Source: a virus
IMG/VR virus record: IMGVR_UViG_3300010412_000003
Span: 1 to 64,000 of that record
Reading direction: 5' to 3' (one strand)
Length of the DNA: 64,000 nucleotides
Numbering within the stretch: position 1 is the first letter of the stretch; each line of letters starts with the position of its first letter. This document shows, one piece after another, positions 805 to 31,759 of this stretch. The notes under the pieces were generated by a model. It was not told the DNA's origin and made no database searches. It was given only the letters and a program-made list of their open reading frames with translations. The translations under genes were made by a program, and so were the position numbers.

Positions 805-1193
805 TTATTGAAAAGATATTAGAAGATTGGGAAGGTGTTGAGCTTAAAAGGAAAAGGAAGATGGTCATAGACTATCTTAATGAAAGAGCAAAAGAATTGC
901 CAGAGGATGTTGTTGCGCCATCTATAATGCTCATTAGACAAAACATTGATGAAGAGACAAGGTGTGAGGTTGTAGAAAATTTTGAAAAATATGGTGGTGT
1001 TTGGTGGACAAGACCAGATTTTCATTATCACTTTGGGGTAAAAGTTAGAAACATGCTAAGAGATTTAGTTTGTAATGATGATGTTTTACAAACAAAAAAT
1101 TGGGATGATTACTGGCAGATTGTTGTCGAAATTGCATTGGGACTAAGAAATGAAACCACAAGAGAATACACAAGAGAAGTTGAATTTAGTTAA
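801..1193 (+). CDS. hypothetical protein
   Basis: 130-aa ORF, ATGA overlap with upstream gene. Confidence 0.65.
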   Translation: MIIEKILEDWEGVELKRKRKMVIDYLNERAKELPEDVVAPSIMLIRQNIDEETRCEVVENFEKYGGVWWTRPDFHYHFGVKVRNMLRDLVCNDDVLQTKNWDDYWQIVVEIALGLRNETTREYTREVEFS

Positions 1194-1767
1194 AGATAAT
1201 AAATACAATATAATTTATATTGACCCACCTTGGAAATTTAAAACATACTCTCCAAAAGGTAAGGAAAAAAAATCAGCAGAAAACCATTATCCAACAATGA
1301 CCATCGAAGAAATTTACCAATTAGATTTAAAAAGAATTGCAAAGCCAGATTGTGTTTTATTTACTTGGGTAACATTCCCACTTTTAAAAGAAGGCTTGAT
1401 GGCAATAGAAAAATGGGGGTTTGAATATAAAACAAATGCATTTACTTGGGTGAAGAGAAACAAAATTGCAGATAGTTGGTTTTGGGGAACAGGTTATTGG
1501 ACTAGAGCAAATGCAGAGTTATGTTTGTTGGCAACAGTTGGAAGTCCAAAAAGAGTTTCACGTTCTGTACATCAGGTTCTTGACGACAGGGTAATGAGAC
1601 ATAGTAAAAAACCACAAACAGCTAGAGATAGAATTGTACAGTTGTGTGGTGATCTTCCAAGAATTGAAATTTTTGCCAGAGAACGGGATGTTGGTTGGGA
1701 TGCAACAGGTTATGACCTTGATGGATTAGATGTTAGAGATACGATTGGATTTAAAAATGTGGACTAA
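1150..1767 (+). CDS. MT-A70 family adenine methyltransferase
   Basis: IYIDPPW catalytic motif, HYPTM, WGFEYKT, GYWTRANAE, HSKKP, RIEIFAR. Confidence 0.9.
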   Translation: MKPQENTQEKLNLVKDNKYNIIYIDPPWKFKTYSPKGKEKKSAENHYPTMTIEEIYQLDLKRIAKPDCVLFTWVTFPLLKEGLMAIEKWGFEYKTNAFTWVKRNKIADSWFWGTGYWTRANAELCLLATVGSPKRVSRSVHQVLDDRVMRHSKKPQTARDRIVQLCGDLPRIEIFARERDVGWDATGYDLDGLDVRDTIGFKNVD

Positions 1768-1981
1768 AGAAGAGTTTATTCAAATTGCAGATAAGGAAAT
1801 AGAAAAAATAAAAGCAAGAAGTGGAAAAGTTTATTCTCAGTTTGGTTTGAATTTTGGCACAACTTATAATGATGATGTTAAATTTATAAAAGCTCATTAT
1901 GAGAATTTGGGATATGTTGTAACAACTCATATTTGCAAAAGACGTTTGGCAGATATATCAATACAATTCAACTCTAATTAA
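1757..1981 (+). CDS. hypothetical protein
   Basis: ORF track 1730..1981; ATG 1757 overlaps the end of the methyltransferase gene. Confidence 0.55.
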   Translation: MWTKEEFIQIADKEIEKIKARSGKVYSQFGLNFGTTYNDDVKFIKAHYENLGYVVTTHICKRRLADISIQFNSN

Positions 1982-2006
1982 CCCTGAAATTAATCTTGTT
2001 TTACCC

Positions 2007-2035
2007 TTGATTAAAACTTAATGTCATGGTAAAAT
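2007..2035 (+). promoter_or_regulatory. sigma70/sigmaA-type promoter
   Basis: TTGATT-17 bp-TAAAAT with TG extended -10, intergenic. Confidence 0.6.
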
Positions 2036-2067
2036 GATTGGTAATTGAGTTTAGTAAGGATGGTAAT

Positions 2068-2997
2068 ATGGGAAATTTTGATGTAGAAAAACATAAGATT
2101 TTTGAATGTATATCTGGTAGTCGTTTGTATGGGTTGAACAAACCCAATTCTGATTTTGATTATCGGGGTGTTGTGATTCCACCAATGGAAGTTCTTTTAA
2201 ATCCTTTTGAAAGCTTTGAGCAGAAAGACAAGGGTTTTGAAGAGGAAGATAGAACATTATATGCACTTGGAAAGTTCTTCAAACTTTGTGCTGATGCAAA
2301 CCCAAATATTGTTGAGCTTTTGTTTGTTCCACAATCACACATCCTATTTAAAACACCACATTGGAATTTAATCTTGCAGAACAAACACTTGTTCCTGAGC
2401 AAGAAAGCAAAGTATACATTTACTGGATATGCATTCAGCCAGTTGAAATCAATTCAGTCTCACAGGGTATGGTTTACAAACCCACCAGATCACAAACCAA
2501 CAAGAGAAGAGTTTGGTCTTATGGGGCATAGAAGTGTCAGCACAAAATTTGCTGAATTGGTTGCCAGTGGTGATTTGAGACTTGAGTATCTAAATGAAGA
2601 GTATGCAACTGAGGCAAGAAAAGAATTTGGGTATGCCAAGGCAAAAGAGGTTTGGGATAACTATATGTCTTGGTTCAATGGAAGAAATCCAGAGCGAAAA
2701 GCACTTGAGGAAAAATTTGGTTATGATACAAAAATGGCATCACATCTTTTTAGATTGATGTTGGAAGGTAGAGAGCTTTTACTGGAAGGTAAGATAACAT
2801 TTCCTCTTCCAGAGGCAGAGTTCGTCTTGGCAGTAAAAGAGGGAAAGTATACATATGAGGAAGTTCTTGAAATGGCTAAAGATTTTGACAATCAGTTTCA
2901 GGAATGGCATGATGTATCTGATCTTCCAAAAGCACCTGATCGAAAAAAGCTTGCTGATCTTTATTATTCACTAATCAATATAGAGGTTAGGAAATGA
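2068..2997 (+). CDS. RlaP-type (Pol-beta superfamily) nucleotidyltransferase
   Basis: SGSRLYGLNKPNSDFDYRGV (GS..DxD), ANPNIVELL, GYDTKMASHLFRL motifs. Confidence 0.85.
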   Translation: MGNFDVEKHKIFECISGSRLYGLNKPNSDFDYRGVVIPPMEVLLNPFESFEQKDKGFEEEDRTLYALGKFFKLCADANPNIVELLFVPQSHILFKTPHWNLILQNKHLFLSKKAKYTFTGYAFSQLKSIQSHRVWFTNPPDHKPTREEFGLMGHRSVSTKFAELVASGDLRLEYLNEEYATEARKEFGYAKAKEVWDNYMSWFNGRNPERKALEEKFGYDTKMASHLFRLMLEGRELLLEGKITFPLPEAEFVLAVKEGKYTYEEVLEMAKDFDNQFQEWHDVSDLPKAPDRKKLADLYYSLINIEVRK

Positions 2998-3203
2998 AAA
3001 TAATTGCAGATAGAAATACTAAAAAAGGAGCAAAGGTTCTTTTTCAATATTATCCAGAACGTCAGTTTGGTGACAATATGTATGTTTCTTGTGTCAATGG
3101 AATTACTATATTAAATATTCAATACAAGGGCAGTTTAAAAGATGAAGATGTTTTAAAATTCTTGGATGATGTTGTAGATTTATTGGAAAGGGCAGGTCAT
3201 TAA
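2994..3203 (+). CDS. hypothetical protein
   Basis: 69-aa ORF, ATGA overlap, GAGG RBS. Confidence 0.6.
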   Translation: MKIIADRNTKKGAKVLFQYYPERQFGDNMYVSCVNGITILNIQYKGSLKDEDVLKFLDDVVDLLERAGH

Positions 3204-3204
3204 A

Positions 3205-3504
3205 ATGGATGAAGAAACTAAAAAATATGTTGATGATAAAATAGAATGTATTTCAAAAATATTGAAAGATATTAAGTCAAAAAGTGTTCTAACATATGCC
3301 CAAATAAATTTTATTTTGTTTTTGTTTTCTGTTGGATATTTGTGGGAAGATCGTATTTACATGCTATGGCAAAATGATAGTTTTTGGGAAACAGTGGTTG
3401 GTTTTTTCACTGCTTGGTTTCTTCACCCACTGTTTGTTGGTATGAAGCTTGCTGGTCTTGACATTTCACGATTAGATTTGATTCTCCTTGAGGCAATCAA
3501 ATAA
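3205..3504 (+). CDS. hypothetical membrane protein
   Basis: 99-aa ORF with two hydrophobic segments. Confidence 0.6.
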   Translation: MDEETKKYVDDKIECISKILKDIKSKSVLTYAQINFILFLFSVGYLWEDRIYMLWQNDSFWETVVGFFTAWFLHPLFVGMKLAGLDISRLDLILLEAIK

Positions 3505-3507
3505 GAT

Positions 3508-4017
3508 ATGGCTAAATCAATAGATCAGGATTCGATAGGTACTGTTTATGTTTACTGTGATGGTGGTTGTAGAGGAAATCAAAATAAAGAAAATGTTGGT
3601 GGTTGGGGTGTGTATTTGAAACGTGGTCAATTTCGTGAACATAAAATGAATGGTTCTAAAAAAAATACCACAAATAATGAAATGGAATTAATAGCAGTTA
3701 TTGAAGCATTAAAATTTTTAGGAAATAAAAAACGAGAAACAATTATAATTGTAGATAGTAATTATGTTTATAGTGGAATAACAAATTGGATTTATGGCTG
3801 GATTGAAAGAGGATGGAAAACAAAGTCAAAATCACCAGTAAAAAATATGAAATTATGGAAGGAGCTATTATCACTTAAATTACAATTTGAAAACATTAAG
3901 TTTGAATTATGTAAGGGTCATTCCGAAATAGAAGGGAATGAGATTGCAGATCAGCTTGCAAATAAGGCAATGGATGATTTAGAAAAATTTGAATCTATGG
4001 GAGATAGTGATGTTTAA
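3508..4017 (+). CDS. rnhA: ribonuclease HI
   Basis: YCDGGCRGN, TTNNEMEL, VDSNYV, GWKT, VKNxxLW, KGHS..GNEIADQLA. Confidence 0.93.
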   Translation: MAKSIDQDSIGTVYVYCDGGCRGNQNKENVGGWGVYLKRGQFREHKMNGSKKNTTNNEMELIAVIEALKFLGNKKRETIIIVDSNYVYSGITNWIYGWIERGWKTKSKSPVKNMKLWKELLSLKLQFENIKFELCKGHSEIEGNEIADQLANKAMDDLEKFESMGDSDV

Positions 4018-4540
4018 AAAACAAAGCGTTTTATTTTTGGTGGTGTTAGTTTTAATTTCATTGTTATTGGTTGGTTGTATGCCAGATACGCAAACAACTG
4101 ATAATGGGTTGGTTGTAAACAAGGTGCAGGATACACAATTGTATCATGTTTATATGCTTGTTGAGTCTGGTGATCAGTATTCAAGCTTGAGGGGTGAGAG
4201 TGGTGGTGTTTTCATTAATGGAACTGGAAATTTTAGTAGTTCGATTTGGGAAGATGGTAAAGGAATGGTTCGTGGTATTTTGGTAGAAGTTGAACCAGAA
4301 CCACAGTGGGTTTCCAATATCTTGAATGAGGTTGATAATCCAATATTCATTGTAAAAACAACTGATAGAAAAGCAACAATGGGCAAAGGTGGGGATTTAT
4401 TACATTTGGTTTGCACTACAGATTATGAACCAACATGCACAAAGGATTTAGAGACCCTTGATATATTTTGTGAAGAAACATGGGAGTTTGATTTTTGCAG
4501 ACTAATCTGGATTGATCGAGAAAGTGAGATTGTAGAATGA
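4010..4540 (+). CDS. putative lipoprotein
   Basis: MFKKQ + hydrophobic stretch + LLVGC lipobox. Confidence 0.7.
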   Translation: MFKKQSVLFLVVLVLISLLLVGCMPDTQTTDNGLVVNKVQDTQLYHVYMLVESGDQYSSLRGESGGVFINGTGNFSSSIWEDGKGMVRGILVEVEPEPQWVSNILNEVDNPIFIVKTTDRKATMGKGGDLLHLVCTTDYEPTCTKDLETLDIFCEETWEFDFCRLIWIDRESEIVE

Positions 4541-4656
4541 GGGTTGTAATTGGAATGATTGGTTATGTTATTGGGATTGTTCTTGGGGTTCGTTTTGGGG
4601 AGTATGTTGTTACTAGAAAGTTTTGGTCAAACTGGATGAAAAAGGTGGTAAAATAA
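4537..4656 (+). CDS. small membrane protein (39 aa)
   Basis: MRVVIGMIGYVIGIVLGVRFGEYVVTRKFWSNWMKKVVK; ATGA overlap; below ORF-track cutoff. Confidence 0.5.
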   Translation: MRVVIGMIGYVIGIVLGVRFGEYVVTRKFWSNWMKKVVK

Positions 4657-4760
4657 TGGTAGTGATAACTGAAAAATTAATTAAGGCTGTAGTAATTACA
4701 ATTGGTGTTCTTTTAATAGTTGGAATAATTGCAGGTTTGTATTTTTGGGCAATGGGATAA
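4656..4760 (+). CDS. small membrane protein (34 aa)
   Basis: MVVITEKLIKAVVITIGVLLIVGIIAGLYFWAMG; TAATG coupling, AAGGTGG RBS. Confidence 0.5.
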   Translation: MVVITEKLIKAVVITIGVLLIVGIIAGLYFWAMG

Positions 4761-4764
4761 TAAA

Positions 4765-5163
4765 ATGAAGATTTTATTTTTAGAAGACAATGATGAAAGA
4801 ATTTTCAAAGCACAGCAATTGTATAAAAATGTTGAGGTCTTATCAATTGCGAAGACAGCATCTATTGCAATTGAATTTTTGAAAACAAGACTTTCATATG
4901 ATGTAGTTCATTTAGACCATGATCTCGGTGGTGAAGTGTATGTTGACTCAAGTCGAGAAGATTGTGGCATGGAAGTTGTTAGGTTTTTATGCGAGAACAA
5001 TCACATTTATTCTGATGTTGTCAAGGTTGTTACAGTACACTCTTGGAATATACCAGCATCACAGGAAATGTTTAAGAAGTTGCGTGAGGCTGGATATACA
5101 ACATTTATGATTCCCTTTGGTGTTCAAAATTGGGATATTGGAAATCATATTGATCTTGTTTGA
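4765..5163 (+). CDS. cyclic-phosphate processing receiver-domain protein
   Basis: MKILFLED, VHLDHDLGG, CGMEVVRFL, VHSWN motifs of the stand-alone receiver-like family. Confidence 0.75.
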   Translation: MKILFLEDNDERIFKAQQLYKNVEVLSIAKTASIAIEFLKTRLSYDVVHLDHDLGGEVYVDSSREDCGMEVVRFLCENNHIYSDVVKVVTVHSWNIPASQEMFKKLREAGYTTFMIPFGVQNWDIGNHIDLV

Positions 5164-5421: not shown

Positions 5422-6279
5422 ATGTTCAACAAATACACTGAGTATATCAACAATTTGAAAGCAGAAGGAAAAAGCGAACACACTATTGCATCATACTCTG
5501 CTGGAATTGAACCTTTCTTGAACCACTTTGGAATCAACACTGTGGAAGATATTGTAAATATTTCCAAAAGCGAAATTGTAGAATATCGAAATTCAATTAA
5601 TGGAAAACCATCCACTGTAAATGCGAGAATGAGACCAGTGAAGGCATTTCTAAACTGGATGGTTGACATGGATTACATTGAAACCAATCCTGTATCACGA
5701 ATTAAAAGTTTGAAAGAATCAAAGAGAGTTCCATTGATTTTGACAGATGAAGAGGTTATTGCAATGTTGAATGCTTGTGATAACACTCAGGAAAAACTCA
5801 TGGTTGCAATGATGATCACAACTGGAATGCGAGTAAATGAATTAGTTCTGGCAAAAGTTAGTGATGTTCGTGAAAATAGAATTCTTGTTCATGGAAAAGG
5901 TGACAAGGAGCGTTGGGTTGCATTGCAGAGTTGGGTAGTTGATCTTTTGAATGCACATCTTTCAGAGAATAAAGATGAATATCTTTTCCCATCACGCAGG
6001 GGTGGTGATCAGGTAACTACAAATGCAATTCGTTATCGAATCAAGAGAATTGCTAAGAATGCTGGTGTTGAAGAAGAACGTCTTTCTAAGATCACACCAC
6101 ACTCAACTCGAAGATACTTTGCAACTGCTGTATTGAATAATGGAACAGACATTGCTGTTGTGCAACAACTTATGGGACATGCATCAATCAACACAACATT
6201 GCGCTATGCACAGGTTTTGCACTCAACTATGGACAATGCTCTTGAGAGCAAGTTTGGGAATTTCAACAATGGGAAGTAA
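5422..6279 (+). CDS. XerC/D-like tyrosine recombinase/integrase
   Basis: TGMRVNEL, HGKGDKER, HSTRRYFAT, MGH...TTLRY catalytic R-K-H-R-H-Y. Confidence 0.93.
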   Translation: MFNKYTEYINNLKAEGKSEHTIASYSAGIEPFLNHFGINTVEDIVNISKSEIVEYRNSINGKPSTVNARMRPVKAFLNWMVDMDYIETNPVSRIKSLKESKRVPLILTDEEVIAMLNACDNTQEKLMVAMMITTGMRVNELVLAKVSDVRENRILVHGKGDKERWVALQSWVVDLLNAHLSENKDEYLFPSRRGGDQVTTNAIRYRIKRIAKNAGVEEERLSKITPHSTRRYFATAVLNNGTDIAVVQQLMGHASINTTLRYAQVLHSTMDNALESKFGNFNNGK

Positions 6280-7631: not shown

Positions 7632-8063
7632 ATGAAAAATCAAATTGTTTATGATGAAGATGGAAATCCAGTAGGTGTTTTGGATATTAAAAAGGGAGAA
7701 TATCTTCCACTGCTAACCAATAAAGTTGTAAATGGTATTACAGAAATTGTTAACAGCACTGCTGAAAATGGAATTAGGGAACTGTCAAAAAATATTGTTG
7801 AAATGATCTTTGGTGGTGTTACAACTATTGTGGTTACTCGACATTCAAGTTGGGTTGCAGGGTTTCAGTATGACAGTTTGAATGAAGCTTTGATTGTTTA
7901 CACAAAGCGAGAAGGTTATAATGATGAACACATGATTAATCTTGATAAGTATTACACCATAGAAAATGTTACTTGGAGTGAGGTTTCTTATCTTATTGAA
8001 ACTGCAAAAGTTGGAAATTCTATTGGCAGGGTTATTCATAGAATGCAAAATGCTCGAAAATAG
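7632..8063 (+). CDS. KTSC-like domain protein (C-terminal)
   Basis: SSWVAGFQYD...LIVYTK...YYTIENV...SIGRVIH resembles the KTSC pattern SSxIxxxxYD..L.V.F...Y.Y.xV...S.GR. Confidence 0.55.
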   Translation: MKNQIVYDEDGNPVGVLDIKKGEYLPLLTNKVVNGITEIVNSTAENGIRELSKNIVEMIFGGVTTIVVTRHSSWVAGFQYDSLNEALIVYTKREGYNDEHMINLDKYYTIENVTWSEVSYLIETAKVGNSIGRVIHRMQNARK

Positions 8064-8076
8064 ACTGACCAATTTC

Positions 8077-8104
8077 TTGACAAATAAAAAAAATCTGTTA
8101 TAAT
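8077..8104 (+). promoter_or_regulatory. sigma70/sigmaA promoter P1 of ncRNA cluster
   Basis: TTGACA-16 bp-TATAAT with TG extension; no ORF downstream. Confidence 0.75.
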
Positions 8105-8109
8105 ATTCA

Positions 8110-8190
8110 TAGTTATCCTTTTGGTTTGGTTGGTTTGTTGAAAGTCAAGGGAATTGCAGGTGGGAACTTGATGAATTCCCTTGACTTGAA
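8110..8190 (+). ncRNA. candidate small RNA: anti-SD/GU-rich 5' tail plus strong hairpin
   Basis: TAGTTATCCTTTTGGTTTGGTTGGTTTGTTG followed by stem AAGTCAAGGGAATT (8142-8155)/AATTCCCTTGACTT (8174-8187). Confidence 0.5.
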
Positions 8191-8209
8191 AATAAAATCA
8201 AGGTATAAT
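8181..8209 (+). promoter_or_regulatory. sigma70/sigmaA promoter P2 of ncRNA cluster
   Basis: TTGACT-17 bp-TATAAT. Confidence 0.75.
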
Positions 8210-8238
8210 AAATAGGAAAGTTGGACTTTTACAAAAAA

Positions 8239-8429
8239 TATAATTGGCTTTTACGCCTCTTGATCTAAATATCTGATACTGGCTGTACACTGGTGTAGGG
8301 TGGGTCGCTCTACTAGGTGAGAGGATACATCCGAGGAAGGATGGGAGTATCACCTAATCAGATGGATACCAGAGGTACACTGGTGAAGATGGGGAGACTA
8401 TCTTCCAAGGGGCATAAAAGTCAATTATA
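8239..8429 (+). ncRNA. ~190-nt multi-stem structured RNA of unknown class
   Basis: 24-bp closing stem 8239-8262/8406-8429 with G-U pairs; internal stems ATCTGAT/ATCAGAT, GTAGGGTG/CGCTCTAC, TAGGTGA/TCACCTA, GAAGATGG/CTATCTTC. Confidence 0.7.
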
Positions 8430-8434
8430 AAAAT

Positions 8435-8555
8435 GGGGTTGATCGGTTTCGACAGGTCACAGGGATTATCAGTAGGTGAAAATGCCCTTGGTGAAGACAC
8501 TGAAAATAATCGTGAACTTGTGATTTGGACAGGGGTTCAATCCCCCTCAACTCCA
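8435..8555 (+). ncRNA. ssrA: minimal tmRNA (tRNA-like domain only)
   Basis: Acceptor stem GGGGTTG/CAACTCC-A with G3-U70; D-loop ATCGGTTTCGAC; GAC + T arm AGGGG-TTCAATC-CCCCT; helix 2 AGGTCACAGG/CTTGTGATTT closed after ~55 nt. Confidence 0.85.
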
Positions 8556-8603
8556 CAGAACTTTAATAACCATTCAGATGCAATATATCTGATAAAAAAA
8601 CAA

Positions 8604-9219
8604 ATAGCATGGGTTGGTTGGATTTCCAGCAACCGTCAAGTTTCGTATAAAGGAAACAAGAAGAGTTATAAAACCTCTTCCATGTTATTTGCCAAGGAAC
8701 ATAACTTGGGTTGACTAGCCAGTAAAGTAGGGAAGAAGGGTAGTTTTGCAAACCACTGTGAGTTAGAAACGTAATCTGTCTCACCAGTTAGTAAGGCTAG
8801 CAAGTCCTTTGCAAGACTACTACGTGAAGGCAAAAATCTGGAAGCACCAGATCAGTAGAACGACTCCTACACCCAAGATATAAAATTATTGGTAAATTAT
8901 CGGTAGATGTTGGAACGTGCTATCATGGTTGGTGAATGGTCTTTGTAAAGCCACTAAAAGGTAGAAGACTAGACGGTAACTAAAACACCATGCAGGAAAT
9001 ACAATAACCTGCCTCACCAGTTCCAACAAAATTTTGAAGATTTTCAGGGAATGATAGGTTAGCCACCTAACTCTTAGGAGAGAAAGCAGATAAAAACTAT
9101 CTCCCAAGGATGGTTCTGTAGGGTACTGAGAGGAACAGACAACTGGATACTTGGGTTAGAAAAAATCCTATCCTCATGTAATGGCTTGTGGGGTTGTCAT
9201 TCCCTGAAAGTTTTCAAAA
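8604..9219 (+). ncRNA. ~600-nt large ornate ncRNA candidate (ROOL/GOLLD size class)
   Basis: No credible ORF; many stems incl. 8740-8752/8808-8820, 8908-8916/9020-9028, 26-bp 9032-9057/9194-9219 with four G-U pairs; near a tRNA. Confidence 0.7.
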
Positions 9220-9251
9220 CAAAATGAAATACAAAACCAAAGGAGATAAAA

Positions 9252-9428
9252 ATGTTTAGCGAACTTGTTGCACTTTATGCTGGATTGTTTTTTGTTGTTT
9301 TCAGTTTTGTGGTAGAACCATCAAAGAATTTTGTGTCAAAACTTTTGTTCAAAGCAATTCCATTTATTTTTGGCATGTTGTTGTTGGTATCTTGGGCAAG
9401 TTTACGTGGTTGGCTTGTTATAGTATAA
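9252..9428 (+). CDS. small two-helix membrane protein (58 aa)
   Basis: AAGGAG RBS; MFSELVALYAGLFFVVFSFVVEPSKNFVSKLLFKAIPFIFGMLLLVSWASLRGWLVIV. Confidence 0.7.
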   Translation: MFSELVALYAGLFFVVFSFVVEPSKNFVSKLLFKAIPFIFGMLLLVSWASLRGWLVIV

Positions 9429-9443
9429 AAAATGTAATAAAAT

Positions 9444-9516
<73 letters not shown>

Positions 9517-9545
9517 CCTTGTGAGATTATAAGGAGGTCGTGATA

Positions 9546-9668
9546 ATGCTAAGACTTTTATGCTGGTTTAGAAATGAATATGAAGTTTTGTGGTGTGATT
9601 GGTGTAAAATCATGACTGTCCACAAATGGAATGGCGAAGATTGGGTTTGTTCAAGAAATCATAGGTAA
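9546..9668 (+). CDS. small zinc-finger-like protein (40 aa)
   Basis: AAGGAGG RBS; WCDWC...H...CSRNH. Confidence 0.6.
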   Translation: MLRLLCWFRNEYEVLWCDWCKIMTVHKWNGEDWVCSRNHR

Positions 9669-26743: not shown

Positions 26744-27022
26744 ATGGATGATGTGAAGCATGTTTTATTTGAAAGATTAACTAAGGGAAAAAATTCATTA
26801 AAGTTTGCTTTTGAAAGTGCTGTTAGAATGGTCAATATAAAAAGCAAAACTATTTGGGATGAATCTTATTTCCTTGCAACTGTTTCAAAAGATGGAATTT
26901 TGTTTGAAGACAGTAGTGGAGATACTTGTTTTTGGATTACCAAAGATCAGGTTGATCATATGAAAACAATTCTATCATTCTTTGAAAAAAGATTTGTAGA
27001 AGGAGTTGAAAATGAAGAATAA
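26744..27022 (+). CDS. hypothetical protein
   Basis: 92-aa ORF after promoter. Confidence 0.6.
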   Translation: MDDVKHVLFERLTKGKNSLKFAFESAVRMVNIKSKTIWDESYFLATVSKDGILFEDSSGDTCFWITKDQVDHMKTILSFFEKRFVEGVENEE

Positions 27023-27524
27023 CAGAAAAGAACCACCTGTAGAACTTATAATGACTGAGAAAATTGCTTCTGCAATGATGTTTGCAATCAAGAAACACAA
27101 AGGTCAATTGTATAATGGTAAGGATTATTTTAAGGAGCATGTTTTAGATGTTTTGAAACTTGTTTGCCAAACACAATTTAGGCGCAATGAGGATGTTTTG
27201 GTTGCTACAATCTTACATGATATTGTTGAAGATACAGAGGTCACTCTGGAAGAGATCAAAAAAGAATTTGGTAGGAATGTGGCAAATCTTGTAGACCTTG
27301 TTACTCACAACAAAGTAGATGATCATTACAGTGCTTACACAGTTCGATTGAAAAATAGTGGAAACAAAGGTGCTATAACCATAAAATTATGTGATCTTAC
27401 TTCTAATTTGAGCAAATTAGAATGTGTTGATGATGAATTAAGAAAATATCTTTTGAGAAAGAAGTACCTAAATGCTCTTACGTATTTGACGTTAGGATAT
27501 TTTGAAGAAAAAACAAACTACTAG
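27012..27524 (+). CDS. HD-domain (p)ppGpp hydrolase-like protein (small alarmone hydrolase/Mesh1 type)
   Basis: AxxFAxxxHxGQ, Y..H, LHDIVEDT, FG..VA.LV..VT, IKLCD...N. Confidence 0.85.
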   Translation: MKNNRKEPPVELIMTEKIASAMMFAIKKHKGQLYNGKDYFKEHVLDVLKLVCQTQFRRNEDVLVATILHDIVEDTEVTLEEIKKEFGRNVANLVDLVTHNKVDDHYSAYTVRLKNSGNKGAITIKLCDLTSNLSKLECVDDELRKYLLRKKYLNALTYLTLGYFEEKTNY

Positions 27525-27533
27525 GAAAATATA

Positions 27534-27905
27534 ATGACTAGAATAAATTGCTTGCCAGTTGAAGAGTTGTCAGACCAACATCTGTTTGCTGAATATAGAG
27601 AGCTTCCAAGAGTGAGACATTTAGAACCTAGGCATAGTGATATTAAAGAATATAAATTGGGTGATGGTCATGTAAAATTCTTTTTGGATAAAGGTCTTTG
27701 GTTGCAACATCGTCATGAAGAATTAAAAAATGAATTAGATGCAAGGGGAATTCAAACAAGCATACCTGTATTATCACTTAGTTGGGATAGTGAATTTATG
27801 CTTGATTGGATTCCAACAGAAAAAGACATTGAAATTAATATTGAAAGAATTCTTGAAAGAATATATAATGGAAAAATAAAACATACATGGAGTAATAAAA
27901 AATGA
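27534..27905 (+). CDS. denV: pyrimidine-dimer DNA glycosylase (T4 endonuclease V family)
   Basis: MTRIN...LSDQHLFAEYRELPR, LGDGHVKFF. Confidence 0.92.
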   Translation: MTRINCLPVEELSDQHLFAEYRELPRVRHLEPRHSDIKEYKLGDGHVKFFLDKGLWLQHRHEELKNELDARGIQTSIPVLSLSWDSEFMLDWIPTEKDIEINIERILERIYNGKIKHTWSNKK

Positions 27906-29008
27906 GTGAAAGAACATTGGCAAGCATTCAGGTAATTGAAGACATTCAGCCAATCCCAAAATATGACAATATTGAATACGCACAAGTTTTGGGATGGTGG
28001 GTAATTGTTCGAAAAGGGGAATATGTTATTGGTGATAAAACAATTTACATTGAAATTGATTCTGTTTTACCACCTAGAGAAGAATATGAATTCTTGAGAA
28101 AACGCAATTTCAGGATTAAGACAATGAGAATGGCAGGGGTTGTTTCTCAGGGAATTTGTTTCAAGCCAGAATTACTTTTACCAAATACAAGCAGGTATAA
28201 AGTTGGTGATGATGTAACTGAAATTCTTGGAGTTGAAAAATACGAACCAGATCAATACAACAGAAAGCTACCCACAGGAAAAAAGGGTTCTCCAAAATAT
28301 CCAAAATTTTTGCTTAGATTTAAATGGTTTAGAAATCTTGTTTTGAATAGAAAAGACAATCGTGGATTTCCTAGATTTATTTCAAAGACTGATGAAACAA
28401 GAATTCAAAATATGCCATTTGTTTTTAAAGACAAAGAGACACAATATATTGTAAGAGAAAAAATTGATGGACAAAGCACAACATTTTTTCTCGAAAAGAA
28501 AAAGCTTGGATGGTTGAGGAAAACAGAATTTGATTTTGGAGTATGCTCAAGAAATTTAAGATTGTGGAAAAAAGATGATAGTCCATTTTGGTTTATTGCA
28601 AATTATCATAAAATAGAAGATGTTTTAAAATCAATTTTTGTTATCACTGATGCAAAACACTTTGTTGCAATTCAGGGAGAGACAATTTCTCCAAGCGCAC
28701 AAGGGAATAAATACTTGGTCAGTGAGCCAGAATTTTATGCTTTCAATTTTATTGTTGATGGTGTAAAAATAAATTCAATTACATCTAGTGAAATATTAAT
28801 GGATTATGGAATATCTTGGTGTCCACTTGTTGCTACGAAATTTACATTTGATGGAATTGATGATGTTGAAATGTTGATGCACTATGTTGATGGAAGATCG
28901 CATATAAATCCAAATGTTTTACGTGAGGGATTTGTTTTCAGAAATGAAAAGAAAGATGTTTCTTTCAAATGTGTGTCAAATAAATTTTTGTTAAAGTATA
29001 ATGAATGA
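27902..29008 (+). CDS. Rnl2-type ATP-dependent RNA ligase (DRB0094-like)
   Basis: N-terminal OB-like IEIDSVLP..SQG; KTDETRIQN; EKIDG adenylation motif; CSRN; QGE; REGFV; SFK. Confidence 0.9.
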   Translation: MSERTLASIQVIEDIQPIPKYDNIEYAQVLGWWVIVRKGEYVIGDKTIYIEIDSVLPPREEYEFLRKRNFRIKTMRMAGVVSQGICFKPELLLPNTSRYKVGDDVTEILGVEKYEPDQYNRKLPTGKKGSPKYPKFLLRFKWFRNLVLNRKDNRGFPRFISKTDETRIQNMPFVFKDKETQYIVREKIDGQSTTFFLEKKKLGWLRKTEFDFGVCSRNLRLWKKDDSPFWFIANYHKIEDVLKSIFVITDAKHFVAIQGETISPSAQGNKYLVSEPEFYAFNFIVDGVKINSITSSEILMDYGISWCPLVATKFTFDGIDDVEMLMHYVDGRSHINPNVLREGFVFRNEKKDVSFKCVSNKFLLKYNE

Positions 29009-29653: not shown

Positions 29654-31759
29654 ATGAATAATTCAGAAGCAACCTATTTTTTGATGGAAAGAAAAAATAA
29701 AGTTATTTTACCAGATCGTACATATCGTGATGCACATAACACAGCTTATGTTGCGACAATGATGTATGGTTTGGTAAATTTAGGTTACACATTTTCATCG
29801 AAACTATTTGATCATCTTTCAAAACACTCCAAGACAGATATTGATAATGCTTTTGAAAGCATTATTGGTGTTTTAAATCAAAGATTGGGAAATGATGTTG
29901 TTCATAGAGCAATGTATCCAAATTTTCCAAGACAGGTAATGGAAGCACATGAAGTTGAGTTGCTTATCAATGCCATTATGCACTATTGGTCTGGTGGAAA
30001 TGTTACCCCTGTATATGAGAAACTTTCAAGACAAAAAATTGAAGTTAAAAAATTTGATGAATTAAAAGTTATTGATCTTGGAAAAACAAGAGACTTTTTT
30101 GAAATGTTTACCGCAATCTTGAAATCAAAAACATCAATTTCTCAGCGTGATGTTGCATATCTTGAATGGTATATGTCCTTTTTCCCAAGTGTGTTTTCTT
30201 TGGAAATTGAAAAAATTACCATGAAAGAGATTGTTGCAGTTTATTCTGGATTGATTATCAAACATCTTGGTGAAGATTTTTGGTTCAAATATATTTCAGA
30301 TCACATCACAAACCCAAATGATGTTTTAAGAATTGCAACTTATCTTTCTGGTGGTGACGTAAGTCTTTCAACTAATACTGAATTCACCAATATGCCAAGA
30401 AGCATTAGAAGACTTTTAATTCAGTTATTAGATAATTTTGCAGAAAACAATTTTTTGCTTTGGGTCATGGTTGAAATGAAACCCCATTTTAAGAAATGGA
30501 TTAGATTGGGAGAGGTTCTTCACCCATTTGAAGATAGGTATTCAAAATATAAGGGTGCAATTAGATTGTTTGACTTTGTGCGAAATAATGTTCACTCTGT
30601 AAAAACATACAACTCTCTTGTTGAAAAATATTTTAATCAACGTGAGTATGGTTTGCTTGTTTCAACGCTACGAGAAAAACCAACCATGTATGCCAGAAAT
30701 TTGAATAGAATTATTAATACAATGGAGCATGTTACAACAAAAAAGATTGTAATGGATTTCTGTGAGGTTATTGATAAAGTATCAACAACTGTTTTGATCA
30801 ACATGGTTTCTCATTTTTCTAGTTTGATGAATATGAGATATAGAGTTTTCTTTCCAAAAAGCAATGTTGGAAAAGTATATGGAATGGTAAATAATCTTCC
30901 ACTGATTGACAAGTATACTGTTGAAAATGTTATTTATCATATTAAGTTGGAATTGATCAAAAGATTTAGCAAACTTGAAAGTCTTGGAAATGTTTATATT
31001 AATCCAAATCTTTCTAAATATGCTGTTCCATTTTCTCAGAGATCAGCAAGCGAATCACTAATGGGTCTTACAAGAGGTAGTAAATTTGAATTCTCTGGAA
31101 ACATTTTGAGATTTTTTATCTATTGGGAAAATAATATGAGCAGAGTTGATCTTGATTTATCTGTCACATTTTATGATGAAAATTTCAACATTGTTAATTC
31201 TGTATGGTATAGAAATTTGAGAAATCGTTTTTCTACTCACAGTGGGGATTTTGTCTCTGGTGAAAATGGTGTCAGTGAATTTGTTGATATTGATGTTCAA
31301 GATGCAGTTTATCTTGGTGCTGTTTATGCTGTGCCAAATCTAATCTCATTTACTGGTCAGGGATTCAAAGAGCTTGAAAAATGTTACATCGGCTGGATGG
31401 AAAGAAATGATATGATGTCTGGTGAAATTTATGAGCCATCAACTGTTGTAGATAAAATCAACGTATCGTCAGATTCGCAAACATATATTCCAGTTGTTTT
31501 GGATTTGAAAAATCGTGAGGCAGTTGTTGCTGACATTTCAGTTGCTGGTAGAAGACATGGAAACCAAGCAAGTAATTTGAAAATGTTAAAATGGGTTGGG
31601 TTGTCATTGATGAACTCAAAGAAAATGAATGTAAAAGAGCTTTTGGAATTACATGCTACTGCTAGAGGAAAAATTGTTGATAACATTGAAGATGCTGATA
31701 CGGTATTCCTAGAGGGTTTCGGTTTAGAAACGGATGTAATTGTTTCAGAATTTTTATAA
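29654..31759 (+). CDS. putative Ro/TROVE-like alpha-helical domain fused to C-terminal TerD-like domain
   Basis: N-terminal MYPNFP..V, DVLR..SGGD.SL, W..LGE.LHP; C-terminal RFFIYW..VDLDLS, HSGD, SEFVDID TerD-type motifs. Confidence 0.65.
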   Translation: MNNSEATYFLMERKNKVILPDRTYRDAHNTAYVATMMYGLVNLGYTFSSKLFDHLSKHSKTDIDNAFESIIGVLNQRLGNDVVHRAMYPNFPRQVMEAHEVELLINAIMHYWSGGNVTPVYEKLSRQKIEVKKFDELKVIDLGKTRDFFEMFTAILKSKTSISQRDVAYLEWYMSFFPSVFSLEIEKITMKEIVAVYSGLIIKHLGEDFWFKYISDHITNPNDVLRIATYLSGGDVSLSTNTEFTNMPRSIRRLLIQLLDNFAENNFLLWVMVEMKPHFKKWIRLGEVLHPFEDRYSKYKGAIRLFDFVRNNVHSVKTYNSLVEKYFNQREYGLLVSTLREKPTMYARNLNRIINTMEHVTTKKIVMDFCEVIDKVSTTVLINMVSHFSSLMNMRYRVFFPKSNVGKVYGMVNNLPLIDKYTVENVIYHIKLELIKRFSKLESLGNVYINPNLSKYAVPFSQRSASESLMGLTRGSKFEFSGNILRFFIYWENNMSRVDLDLSVTFYDENFNIVNSVWYRNLRNRFSTHSGDFVSGENGVSEFVDIDVQDAVYLGAVYAVPNLISFTGQGFKELEKCYIGWMERNDMMSGEIYEPSTVVDKINVSSDSQTYIPVVLDLKNREAVVADISVAGRRHGNQASNLKMLKWVGLSLMNSKKMNVKELLELHATARGKIVDNIEDADTVFLEGFGLETDVIVSEFL

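What the first reader, a model, noticed from the sequence alone, without database searches (positions are those of the whole stretch)
8239..8429. ~190-nt multi-branched RNA with two near-identical hairpins bearing self-complementary GUAC loops
Seen: a 24-bp closing stem (8239-8262/8406-8429) encloses about six helices. A 21-nt element occurs twice: GATACTGGCTGTACACTGGTG (8275-8295) and GATACCAGAGGTACACTGGTG (8365-8385). Each folds as a 6-bp stem with a 7-nt loop (CUGUACA, AGGUACA), and the stem differences preserve pairing. GUAC is palindromic, so the loops could kiss intramolecularly or link monomers into dimers or rings. Inference: an oligomerising structural RNA (conceptually like phi29 pRNA hand-in-hand contacts) or an anticodon-loop mimic that decoys tRNA nucleases. 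I do not recognise the family.
Basis: partly seen in the sequence, partly recalled or inferred. Interest (0 to 1): 0.72.

Follow-up and report, generated by a model that had tools for sequence, protein, structure and literature searches.

The report
Orphan folded RNA beside phage mini-tmRNA
An uncultured phage carries a very tightly folded, roughly 190-letter non-coding RNA gene just before a miniature tmRNA; it matches no catalogued RNA family and no relative could be found, so what it does is still a guess.

Summary
Window 8239-8429 (+) is the most stable 191-nt fold among the 673 windows sampled. The fold is strand-specific and richer in GC than the phage. It consists of a 23-bp closing stem around two gap-free four-way junctions.

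The 21-nt element does occur twice. However, the twin GUAC-loop hairpins are only one of two nearly equal folds (-78.6 vs -79.7 kcal/mol). In the other fold the two elements pair with each other as a 15-bp helix. The growing transcript is predicted to fold first into the twin-hairpin form.

It lies in an ORF-poor RNA cluster behind two consensus promoters, 5 nt before a mini-tmRNA that has only the tRNA-like domain.

Nothing identifies it. There was no Rfam 15 match, and no homologue in any collection I could reach. So there is no covariation evidence. None of the RNA-library contigs of the three RNA runs laid covers it.

Best reading: a processed, stable phage RNA whose twin loops pair within the molecule, acting as a decoy or scaffold. 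Oligomerisation and anticodon mimicry remain open but untested.

The scan's notes list twin GUAC-loop RNAs in two other phage groups. I did not test those, and the index held no look-alike of this sequence.

The parts
8077..8104 (+). Promoter-like site P1 (12 of 12 consensus letters, TG before the -10)
   Evidence: Consensus match only; not shown to fire.
8181..8209 (+). Promoter-like site P2 (11 of 12). It would start transcription about 8216, roughly 23 nt before the RNA.
   Evidence: The start site is inferred.
8239..8262 (+). 5' arm of closing stem P1
   Evidence: Pair probabilities are 0.96-1.0 for all but the outermost pair (0.66); the C/A mismatch at 8254/8414 is unpaired.
8263..8277 (+). 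Switch segment. Fold A: a 3-bp hairpin. Fold B: 5' strand of helix P2' (8263-8266 and 8271-8277), pairing with 8357-8367.
8278..8294 (+). Element 1. Fold B: hairpin hp1 (5 bp, loop CUGUACA). Fold A: 5' strand of a 15-bp helix with element 2.
8295..8313 (+). Hairpin hpA (8 bp, 3-nt loop), present in both folds
   Evidence: probability 0.84-0.93
8314..8356 (+). Central hairpin: 7 bp, a purine-rich 7x6 internal loop, 5 bp, and a GAGGAA loop. Present in both folds.
   Evidence: probability 0.91-1.0
8357..8367 (+). Switch segment. Fold A: a 3-bp hairpin. Fold B: 3' strand of P2'.
8368..8384 (+). Element 2. Fold B: hairpin hp2 (5 Watson-Crick bp, loop AGGUACA). Fold A: 3' strand of the 15-bp helix.
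8385..8405 (+). Hairpin hpB (8 bp, loop GGAGA), present in both folds. Possible paralogue of hpA.
   Evidence: probability 0.96-0.98. hpA against hpB alone: 37 of 2000 shuffles reach the score.
8406..8429 (+). 3' arm of closing stem P1
8435..8558 (+). Adjacent mini-tmRNA with the tRNA-like domain only. RNase P cutting at its 5' end would set the 3' end of the RNA (inferred).
   Evidence: RF00023, 66.9 bits against a gathering score of 47, with 41 nt in place of 290 model positions. ARAGORN calls no tmRNA.

Best explanation
8239-8429 (+) is a gene for a stable, roughly 190-nt non-coding RNA of an uncultured, AT-rich tailed phage that carries an integrase.

Transcription and processing (inferred):
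- It is transcribed from P2, and by read-through from P1, as the first large unit of an RNA-only operon. The order is: this RNA, a tRNA-like-domain-only mini-tmRNA, about 0.5 kb of further RNA, a second long-stem module, a small ORF, and tRNA-Arg.
- RNase P cutting at the mini-tmRNA 5 nt downstream frees its 3' end.
- The 23-bp closing stem either shields both ends or is trimmed by RNase III.

Fold (shown by computation):
- The body is two stacked four-way junctions without a single unpaired junction base.
- Four segments can pair in two ways that differ by 1.1 kcal/mol.
- The nascent chain folds into the form with twin 5-bp, 7-nt-loop hairpins.

Loop contact (inferred): the two loops, complementary over 5 bp (UGUAC/GUACA), pair with each other inside the molecule. 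This is either a kissing contact or, after rearrangement, the middle of a 15-bp helix. Either way it locks a compact particle.

Function (inferred from context only): a protein-binding decoy or scaffold in the phage's contest with the host over tRNA and translation.
For: Fold:
- MFE -79.7 kcal/mol, z -7.68, 0 of 200 shuffles as good.
- Best of 673 sampled windows, with the second module at 9026 ranked next.
- 75% of bases paired against 59 +/- 4%; two perfect four-way junctions, with none in 300 shuffles.

Strand: the + strand folds at -79.7 against -55.8 for the - strand. There are 7 G-U pairs among 72, against one C/A mismatch.

Composition: GC 44.5% against 33.1% for the window.

Coding: no credible ORF. 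The longest + strand ORF is 37 aa with a GTG start, inside the fold.

Context:
- Two consensus promoter-like sites lie upstream, and no + strand terminator-like site lies before 9172.
- The mini-tmRNA starts 5 nt after the stem.
- tRNA-Arg is at 9444.
- A second module has the same plan: a 25-bp stem with 142 nt inside, z -5.1.

Folding order: prefixes ending at 8364 to 8406 have the twin-hairpin junction as their MFE, and only the full length switches.

Internal paralogy: the two roughly 50-nt units align (0 of 2000 shuffles reach the score), and hpA and hpB keep pairing with different letters.

Conflict context:
- The phage encodes RlaP, cREC, RNase H and MT-A70 upstream, and an RNA ligase and an HD protein further on.
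- RlaP is reported to add nucleotides to damaged RNA ends and to help restore repaired tRNA (abstract of 10.64898/2025.12.29.696909).
- A tRNA-like-domain-only tmRNA in phage DS6A is on record, with a suggested SmpB-titrating role (passages of PMC4131195).
Against: - No homologue was found anywhere I could search, so not one covarying pair from another genome supports any helix.
- No expression evidence. Contigs of three RNA libraries cover 8443-8636 or 8652-9072 of a roughly 90%-alike relative, but none covers 8239-8429. Contigs cannot prove absence.
- One DNA contig of a relative matches 8426-8557, but its first 19 letters do not fit the window (table 8, record 3). The module may therefore be absent or diverged even in near kin.
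- Three other phage contigs with mini-tmRNAs have nothing like it upstream.
- Promoters, RNase P cleavage and RNase III cleavage are consensus-based inference.
- The function rests on neighbourhood alone.
Confidence: 0.45

Rival explanations
1. Self-assembling RNA. In the twin-hairpin fold, loop 1 of one molecule kisses loop 2 of the next (or GUAC pairs with GUAC), giving dimers, rings or chains.
For: - The loops are complementary over 5 bp, and each holds the palindrome GUAC.
- The nascent chain is predicted to fold into the twin-hairpin form.
- RNAs under 200 nt, including the phage-associated manA motif, form RNA-only multimers held by kissing loops between two different loops (abstract and passages of 10.64898/2026.07.01.735769).
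- ROOL, GOLLD and OLE form homo-oligomers (start of the abstract of PMC12286853).
Against: The same bases can pair in cis in both folds. There are no homologues to show that the loops are kept. No Rfam match to manA, ROOL, GOLLD or pRNA, even at E up to 10.
Confidence: 0.12
2. Passive cassette. The fold is only a structured leader that stabilises or insulates the precursor and helps process the mini-tmRNA, with no role of its own.
For: It sits 5 nt before the mini-tmRNA, with no terminator-like site between them. Long stems of two helical turns are classical RNase III processing sites (recalled knowledge). It is absent upstream of 3 of 3 other mini-tmRNAs, so the mini-tmRNA does not need it.
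Against: A plain processing stem needs no interior of 143 nt with two perfect junctions, twin elements and two balanced folds.
Confidence: 0.15
3. Anticodon-loop mimic. Hairpin 1 (5 bp, loop C-U-G-U-A-C-A) imitates the tRNA-Tyr anticodon arm. It would soak up an anticodon nuclease or a tRNA-modifying enzyme that reads U-G-U.
For: Loop 1 has U before GUA in a 7-nt loop on a 5-bp stem. The phage carries RNA-repair genes: RlaP, cREC and an RNA ligase. That such nucleases and guanine transglycosylase read this loop context is recalled knowledge, not tested here.
Against: - Loop 2 has G, not U, before GUA.
- Position 37 is C, not a purine.
- No tRNA model hit falls on 8239-8429.
- Hairpin 1 is the weaker of the two (3 Watson-Crick pairs and 2 G-U pairs) and holds only about 0.19 of the ensemble.
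Confidence: 0.08
4. A DNA-level element rather than an RNA: a relic miniature inverted-repeat transposable element (24-bp terminal inverted repeats), a pair of dyad-symmetric operator sites 90 bp apart, or an origin or attachment-site structure.
For: The 24-nt inverted repeats flank 143 bp, with A-runs and TA on both sides. Each element is a dyad (ACCAG N7 CTGGT). An integrase gene lies 2 kb upstream and replication genes lie 2-3 kb downstream.
Against: - Strand asymmetry: 7 G-U pairs, and the + strand is 24 kcal/mol better.
- A single copy in the 84.5-kb record.
- No copy of the paired arms in 185,579 species genomes, and none in plasmids.
- The dyad motif is not found at any other promoter of the window.
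- No GC-skew turn there.
Confidence: 0.08

Closest known systems
Small and large phage-associated structured RNAs that assemble by kissing loops (manA motif, ROOL, GOLLD)
   Same: Phage-borne, ORF-free, highly structured, placed among tRNA-like genes (the usual placement of ROOL and GOLLD is recalled). Two different loops of one molecule are complementary, which is the contact type that holds manA pentamers together (passages).
   Different: No covariance-model match to any of them, even at E up to 10. ROOL and GOLLD are several times longer (recalled). Here the loops can pair in cis. Assembly is untested and no relatives are known.
phi29 pRNA (Rfam accession RF00044, recalled)
   Different: No Rfam match. 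This phage has an integrase, a PolIII-alpha-type polymerase and a tape-measure protein, so it is not phi29-like.
Bacterial and phage Y RNAs (YrlA)
   Same: Both ends pair in a long stem that closes a structured module. Found with RNA-repair genes.
   Different: The sequence has no GNCGAA(N0-1)G motif and no tRNA-like T and D stem-loops (features from passages of PMC4201824, read). I found no TROVE protein: the 701-aa candidate 21 kb away has no Pfam or PDB sequence match.
Stable RNAs C and D of the phage T4 tRNA cluster (recalled; no source found)
   Same: Small stable phage RNAs of unknown function, made from the same precursors as tRNAs and released by RNase P.
   Different: The T4 RNAs are smaller and, as I recall, lack a long closing stem.
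RNase III processing stalks of rRNA operons and T7 early RNA (recalled)
   Same: Flanking sequences pair over about two helical turns around the unit to be released. Two such modules lie in one operon.
   Different: This concerns only maturation, not function. Cleavage is not shown.
Miniature inverted-repeat transposable elements such as Correia or ERIC (recalled)
   Same: About 190 bp with 24-bp terminal inverted repeats that fold as RNA when transcribed.
   Different: Single copy, no other copy found, and strong strand asymmetry.

Membership tests
Any Rfam 15 family (4227 models) | Covariance-model score at or above the gathering score | tested here: not met
   No match overlaps 8239-8429 at gathering score, nor at E up to 10 on 8050-9600.
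tRNA / tmRNA | Cloverleaf or tRNA-like domain found by ARAGORN or the Rfam models | tested here: not met
   ARAGORN finds only tRNA-Arg at 9444-9518. The Rfam tRNA and tmRNA matches lie outside the RNA.
YrlA / Y RNA | GNCGAA(N0-1)G motif near the 5' end (PMC4201824) | tested here: not met
   The 191-nt sequence printed contains no CGAA.
YrlA / Y RNA | Ro60 (TROVE) gene within about 4 kb on the same strand (PMC4201824) | tested here: not met
   The ORFs scanned between 340 and 16179 give no TROVE hit. The 701-aa protein at 29654 has no Pfam family at E 10 and no PDB match at E 1.
phi29 pRNA | Two loops complementary to each other for intermolecular pairing | tested here: met
   8284-8288 and 8375-8379 are complementary over 5 bp. 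Whether they pair in cis or in trans is unknown.
phi29 pRNA | Model match and a phi29-type phage | tested here: not met
   No Rfam match. The integrase, PolIII-alpha-type polymerase and tape-measure protein are not phi29-like.
6S RNA | Long rod with a central open-promoter-like bubble; model match | tested here: not met
   No Rfam match. The fold is branched with two four-way junctions.
Miniature inverted-repeat transposable element | Terminal inverted repeats | tested here: met
   24-nt arms, 88% complementary.
Miniature inverted-repeat transposable element | Many dispersed copies | tested here: not met
   1 copy in the 84.5-kb record. 0 matches of the paired-arm pattern in genome contigs. 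No plasmid or GenBank-phage match. The host genome is unknown, so this test is incomplete.
Retron non-coding RNA | Reverse transcriptase gene next to an RNA closed by inverted repeats | tested here: not met
   No reverse transcriptase appears among the ORFs scanned. There is only an RNase H, with a weak RVT_3 overlap. The downstream neighbour is the mini-tmRNA.
Conserved structured RNA (any new family) | Homologues with compensatory base changes | tested here: inconclusive
   No homologue was found. Only internal paralogy of the two units is seen.

The most novel reading that the evidence does not exclude
A phage RNA under 200 nt whose two balanced folds act as an assembly switch. The co-transcriptional twin-hairpin form displays two mutually complementary GUAC loops. 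These link molecules head to tail into rings, filaments or cages, as the manA motif does. The RNA would be made in an RNA-only operon together with a trans-translation-blocking mini-tmRNA.
Probability: 0.12. Interest if true: 0.8.

Novelty: new variant of a known kind. Interest (0 to 1): 0.5.

Why it matters
If the RNA is made and stable, it would be a new structured RNA class in phages. It would belong to an RNA-only operon that also holds a mini-tmRNA with only the tRNA-like domain, in a phage that carries tRNA-repair enzymes. That would point to RNA-based moves in the phage-host contest over translation.

Its design is small enough for direct structural work: two gap-free four-way junctions, and two folds about 1 kcal/mol apart that share a 5-bp loop-loop contact. 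It could serve as a natural model of an RNA conformational switch or of RNA self-assembly.

Without relatives or expression data it remains a well-supported candidate, not a finding about function.

Tried and rejected
Known family: rejected. Rfam gave nothing on the RNA at gathering score or at E up to 10.

Homologue hunt, all negative:
- GenBank phages by blastn, and plasmids.
- Neighbour proteins in IMG/VR.
- 10 IMG/VR records with a 49-54% identical polymerase. None of the 10 has a tmRNA match, only chance-level short DNA matches appeared, and 0 of 13 records (these 10 plus 3 mini-tmRNA contigs) matched model R1 at E up to 1.
- The 21-nt element pattern in IMG/VR: 0 matches.
- The loop-only pattern of the central hairpin: 0 matches.
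- An 18-mer of element 2: 1 match, inside coding DNA, with no R1 match. This is chance.
- The twin-box pattern in metagenome contigs: at least 108 stretches, of which 80 were listed. All of those fetched look like tandem repeats. Among the 134 loci then held, the best non-self match was L063 at E 0.022.
- The paired closing-stem arms in genome contigs: 0 matches.
- A 26-mer from the conserved block of the downstream RNA in IMG/VR and in genome contigs: 0 and 0.
- The closest homologue of the 338-aa neighbour protein is 46% identical.

Other checks that led nowhere:
- Paralogy of modules 1 and 2: not supported. The global alignment z is -0.9, shared 7-mers are borderline, and R1 finds only itself in the own record.
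- Special dimer stability: not supported. The gain of -11.2 kcal/mol compares with a background of -8.7 +/- 2.1.
- Expression: RNA-run contigs do not cover 8239-8429. This is not evidence of absence.
- Origin of replication: no skew turn.
- Ro-like partner: no sequence support.
- CsrA or anti-Shine-Dalgarno sponge: 4 of the 6 GGA triplets lie in loops (read). I judged this too weak to count.
- The AcrIIIA1 paper and the T4 search gave nothing usable.

Limits: supplements of papers were not seen. The tables of phage YrlA RNAs in PMC4201824 could bear on the Y-RNA comparison. I ran no literature search aimed at this RNA's own motifs, so I make no claim that it is absent from print beyond its absence from Rfam 15.

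Full report
WHERE IT LIES. The window is the first 64 kb of an 84.5-kb IMG/VR virus record, estimated 59% complete. It is a tailed phage with a tyrosine integrase (5422-6279), a DnaB-like helicase, a PolIII-alpha-type polymerase and a tape-measure protein. GC is 33%. The nearest cultured phages infect Alicyclobacillus, Rossellomorea, Brevibacillus and Bacillus. They share only 33-35% polymerase identity, so a Bacillota host is a weak guess. Near-identical DNA stands in 20 of the 22 listed public runs from 7 studies of sediment, estuary, mangrove and soil.

THE OBSERVATION. All the stated features are there.
- The closing stem 8239-8262 / 8406-8429 has 21 Watson-Crick pairs, 2 G-U pairs and one C/A mismatch.
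- The 21-nt element occurs at 8275-8295 and 8365-8385, 17 of 21 letters identical, with the last 11 identical.
- The + strand folds at -79.7 kcal/mol, z -7.68, reached by 0 of 200 shuffles. The - strand reaches only -55.8.
- Of the 72 pairs, 7 are G-U, and only one C/A mismatch sits within the stem. That is the signature of selection on the + strand RNA rather than on a DNA palindrome.
- Among 673 sampled 191-nt windows it is the most stable for its GC content (z -5.4). The runner-up is a second module at about 9026.
- 75% of bases are paired against 59 +/- 4% in 300 shuffles. The fold holds two four-way junctions with no unpaired junction base, which none of the 300 shuffles had.
- There is no credible ORF.

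TWO FOLDS. Elements 1 and 2 pair with each other over 15 bp (8278-8294 with 8368-8384), and two 3-bp hairpins fill the gaps. Forcing the twin hairpins costs only 1.1 kcal/mol (-78.6). In that case 8263-8277 pairs with 8357-8367, and again both junctions are gap-free. In the ensemble the long helix has probability 0.70 and the hairpins 0.18-0.29. P1, hpA, the central hairpin and hpB are common to both folds, with probabilities mostly above 0.9. Folding of growing prefixes from the presumed start puts hairpin 1 first. From 8364 to 8406 it gives the twin-hairpin junction, and only the complete chain switches to the long helix. The loop bases UGUAC (8284-8288) and GUACA (8375-8379) are partners in either picture. 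In one they form a loop-loop contact, and in the other the middle of the long helix. The two stem differences between the elements are one-sided and fit both folds, so they decide nothing.

INTERNAL DUPLICATION. The repeat is wider than 21 nt. Units 8263-8313 and 8357-8405 align as small stem, element, then 8-bp hairpin (score 43 against 11.2 +/- 5.8; 0 of 2000 shuffles reach it). The hairpins hpA and hpB alone are borderline (37 of 2000). They keep pairing with different letters at several positions. This is the only comparative support available, and it is weak.

SURROUNDINGS.
- Two consensus promoter-like sites point into the region (8077-8104, 12 of 12; 8181-8209, 11 of 12). No + strand terminator-like site follows before 9172.
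- Five nt after the stem begins a 124-nt match to tmRNA covering both ends of the model, with 41 nt in place of 290 positions (66.9 bits). ARAGORN calls no tmRNA. Such a tRNA-like-domain-only gene is on record for mycobacteriophage DS6A, with the suggestion that it titrates SmpB (passages of PMC4131195). I found three more in IMG/VR.
- tRNA-Arg(UCU) lies at 9444.
- A second module at 9032-9219 has the same plan: a 25-bp stem, 142 nt inside, z -5.1. It shows no significant sequence likeness to the first.
- Upstream genes include MT-A70, RlaP, RNase H and cREC. An RNA ligase and an HD protein lie at 27-29 kb. RlaP is reported to extend damaged RNA 3' ends and to help restore repaired tRNAs (abstract).

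WHAT IT IS NOT. The membership table gives the tests. In short: no Rfam family, no tRNA or tmRNA, and none of the Y RNA features. It is not a phi29-type pRNA, a 6S RNA or a retron RNA. A transposable-element relic or a DNA-level site is unlikely, given the strand asymmetry, the single copy and the failed searches.

RELATIVES AND EXPRESSION.

Laying four runs gave three results.
- RNA-library contigs from three studies cover 8652-9072, and one covers 8443-8636, each as a roughly 90%-alike relative.
- None of those contigs covers 8239-8429.
- The DNA run matches 8194-8363 without a change.

One DNA contig of a relative fits 8426-8557, but its first 19 letters do not fit. The module may therefore be missing or diverged in near kin. 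Contigs cannot show absence, so this only means that expression is unproven.

MECHANISM. The fold, its strand and its two balanced forms are shown by computation. The rest is inferred: transcription from P2 and P1, release by RNase P at the mini-tmRNA, protection or RNase III trimming at the 23-bp stem, and loop-loop pairing in cis. Function is a guess from context. I favour a stable decoy or scaffold RNA that presents one hairpin twice, in a phage equipped for conflict over tRNA and translation.

The oligomer idea has real precedent. manA and other RNAs under 200 nt assemble through kissing loops. The nearest-neighbour dimer calculation shows nothing special, but that model cannot score kissing loops. 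The anticodon-mimic idea fits loop 1 only.

EARLIER NOTES. The scan's own notes on this window agree on the cluster and on the mini-tmRNA, both of which I confirmed. Their 'TROVE-like' protein found no sequence support. Notes on two other phage groups mention twin GUAC-loop RNAs. The word index found no look-alike of this sequence, and I could not compare them.

VERDICT. This is a real and unusually well-folded orphan RNA candidate. Its family is unknown and its function is untested, and it has no conservation or expression evidence yet.

Noticed in passing
window 8435-8558 (+): Mini-tmRNA made of the tRNA-like domain only (RF00023, 66.9 bits; G3-U70 pair; no encoded CCA; no tag frame called by ARAGORN). 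Three other IMG/VR contigs carry similar ones (L024 6873-6976, L025 8937-9032, L026 761-852).
   Followed up: partly
window 9032-9219 (+): A second module of about 190 nt with a 25-bp closing stem and 142 nt inside (MFE -67.2, z -5.1). It has the same size plan as the finding but no significant sequence likeness.
   Followed up: partly
window 8652-9072 (and 8443-8636): Contigs of three metatranscriptome runs from three studies cover this part of the cluster as a roughly 90%-alike relative. The block 8816-8894 shows no listed difference in any of the four runs. So the downstream RNA has diverged relatives, and contigs of RNA libraries hold it.
   Followed up: partly
window 9219/9450: One DNA contig of run X16 joins 9219 to 9450, skipping 230 nt that include the 58-aa ORF. 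In that variant module 2 may abut a tRNA directly, as module 1 abuts the mini-tmRNA. The evidence is weak (34 letters on the shorter side).
   Followed up: no
window 1150-5163 and 27006-29008: An RNA-repair-type gene set in a phage: MT-A70 methyltransferase, RlaP nucleotidyltransferase, RNase H, cREC receiver domain, and further on an HD protein and an RNA ligase with a PHA02142 OB domain.
   Followed up: partly
It has no Pfam family even at E 10 and no PDB sequence match at E 1.
   Followed up: partly
window 8772-8789 and 9005-9022: A second pair of twin boxes (16 of 18 identical), inside the downstream RNA region.
   Followed up: no
window 8142-8187 and 8181-8209: A perfect 14-bp hairpin right after promoter P1. 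Its 3' arm contains the -35 hexamer of promoter P2.
   Followed up: no
window 8452..8424 (-): A minus-strand promoter-like site (10 of 12) whose -10 hexamer is the TATAAT at the outer end of the closing stem. It could give an antisense transcript across the RNA.
   Followed up: no
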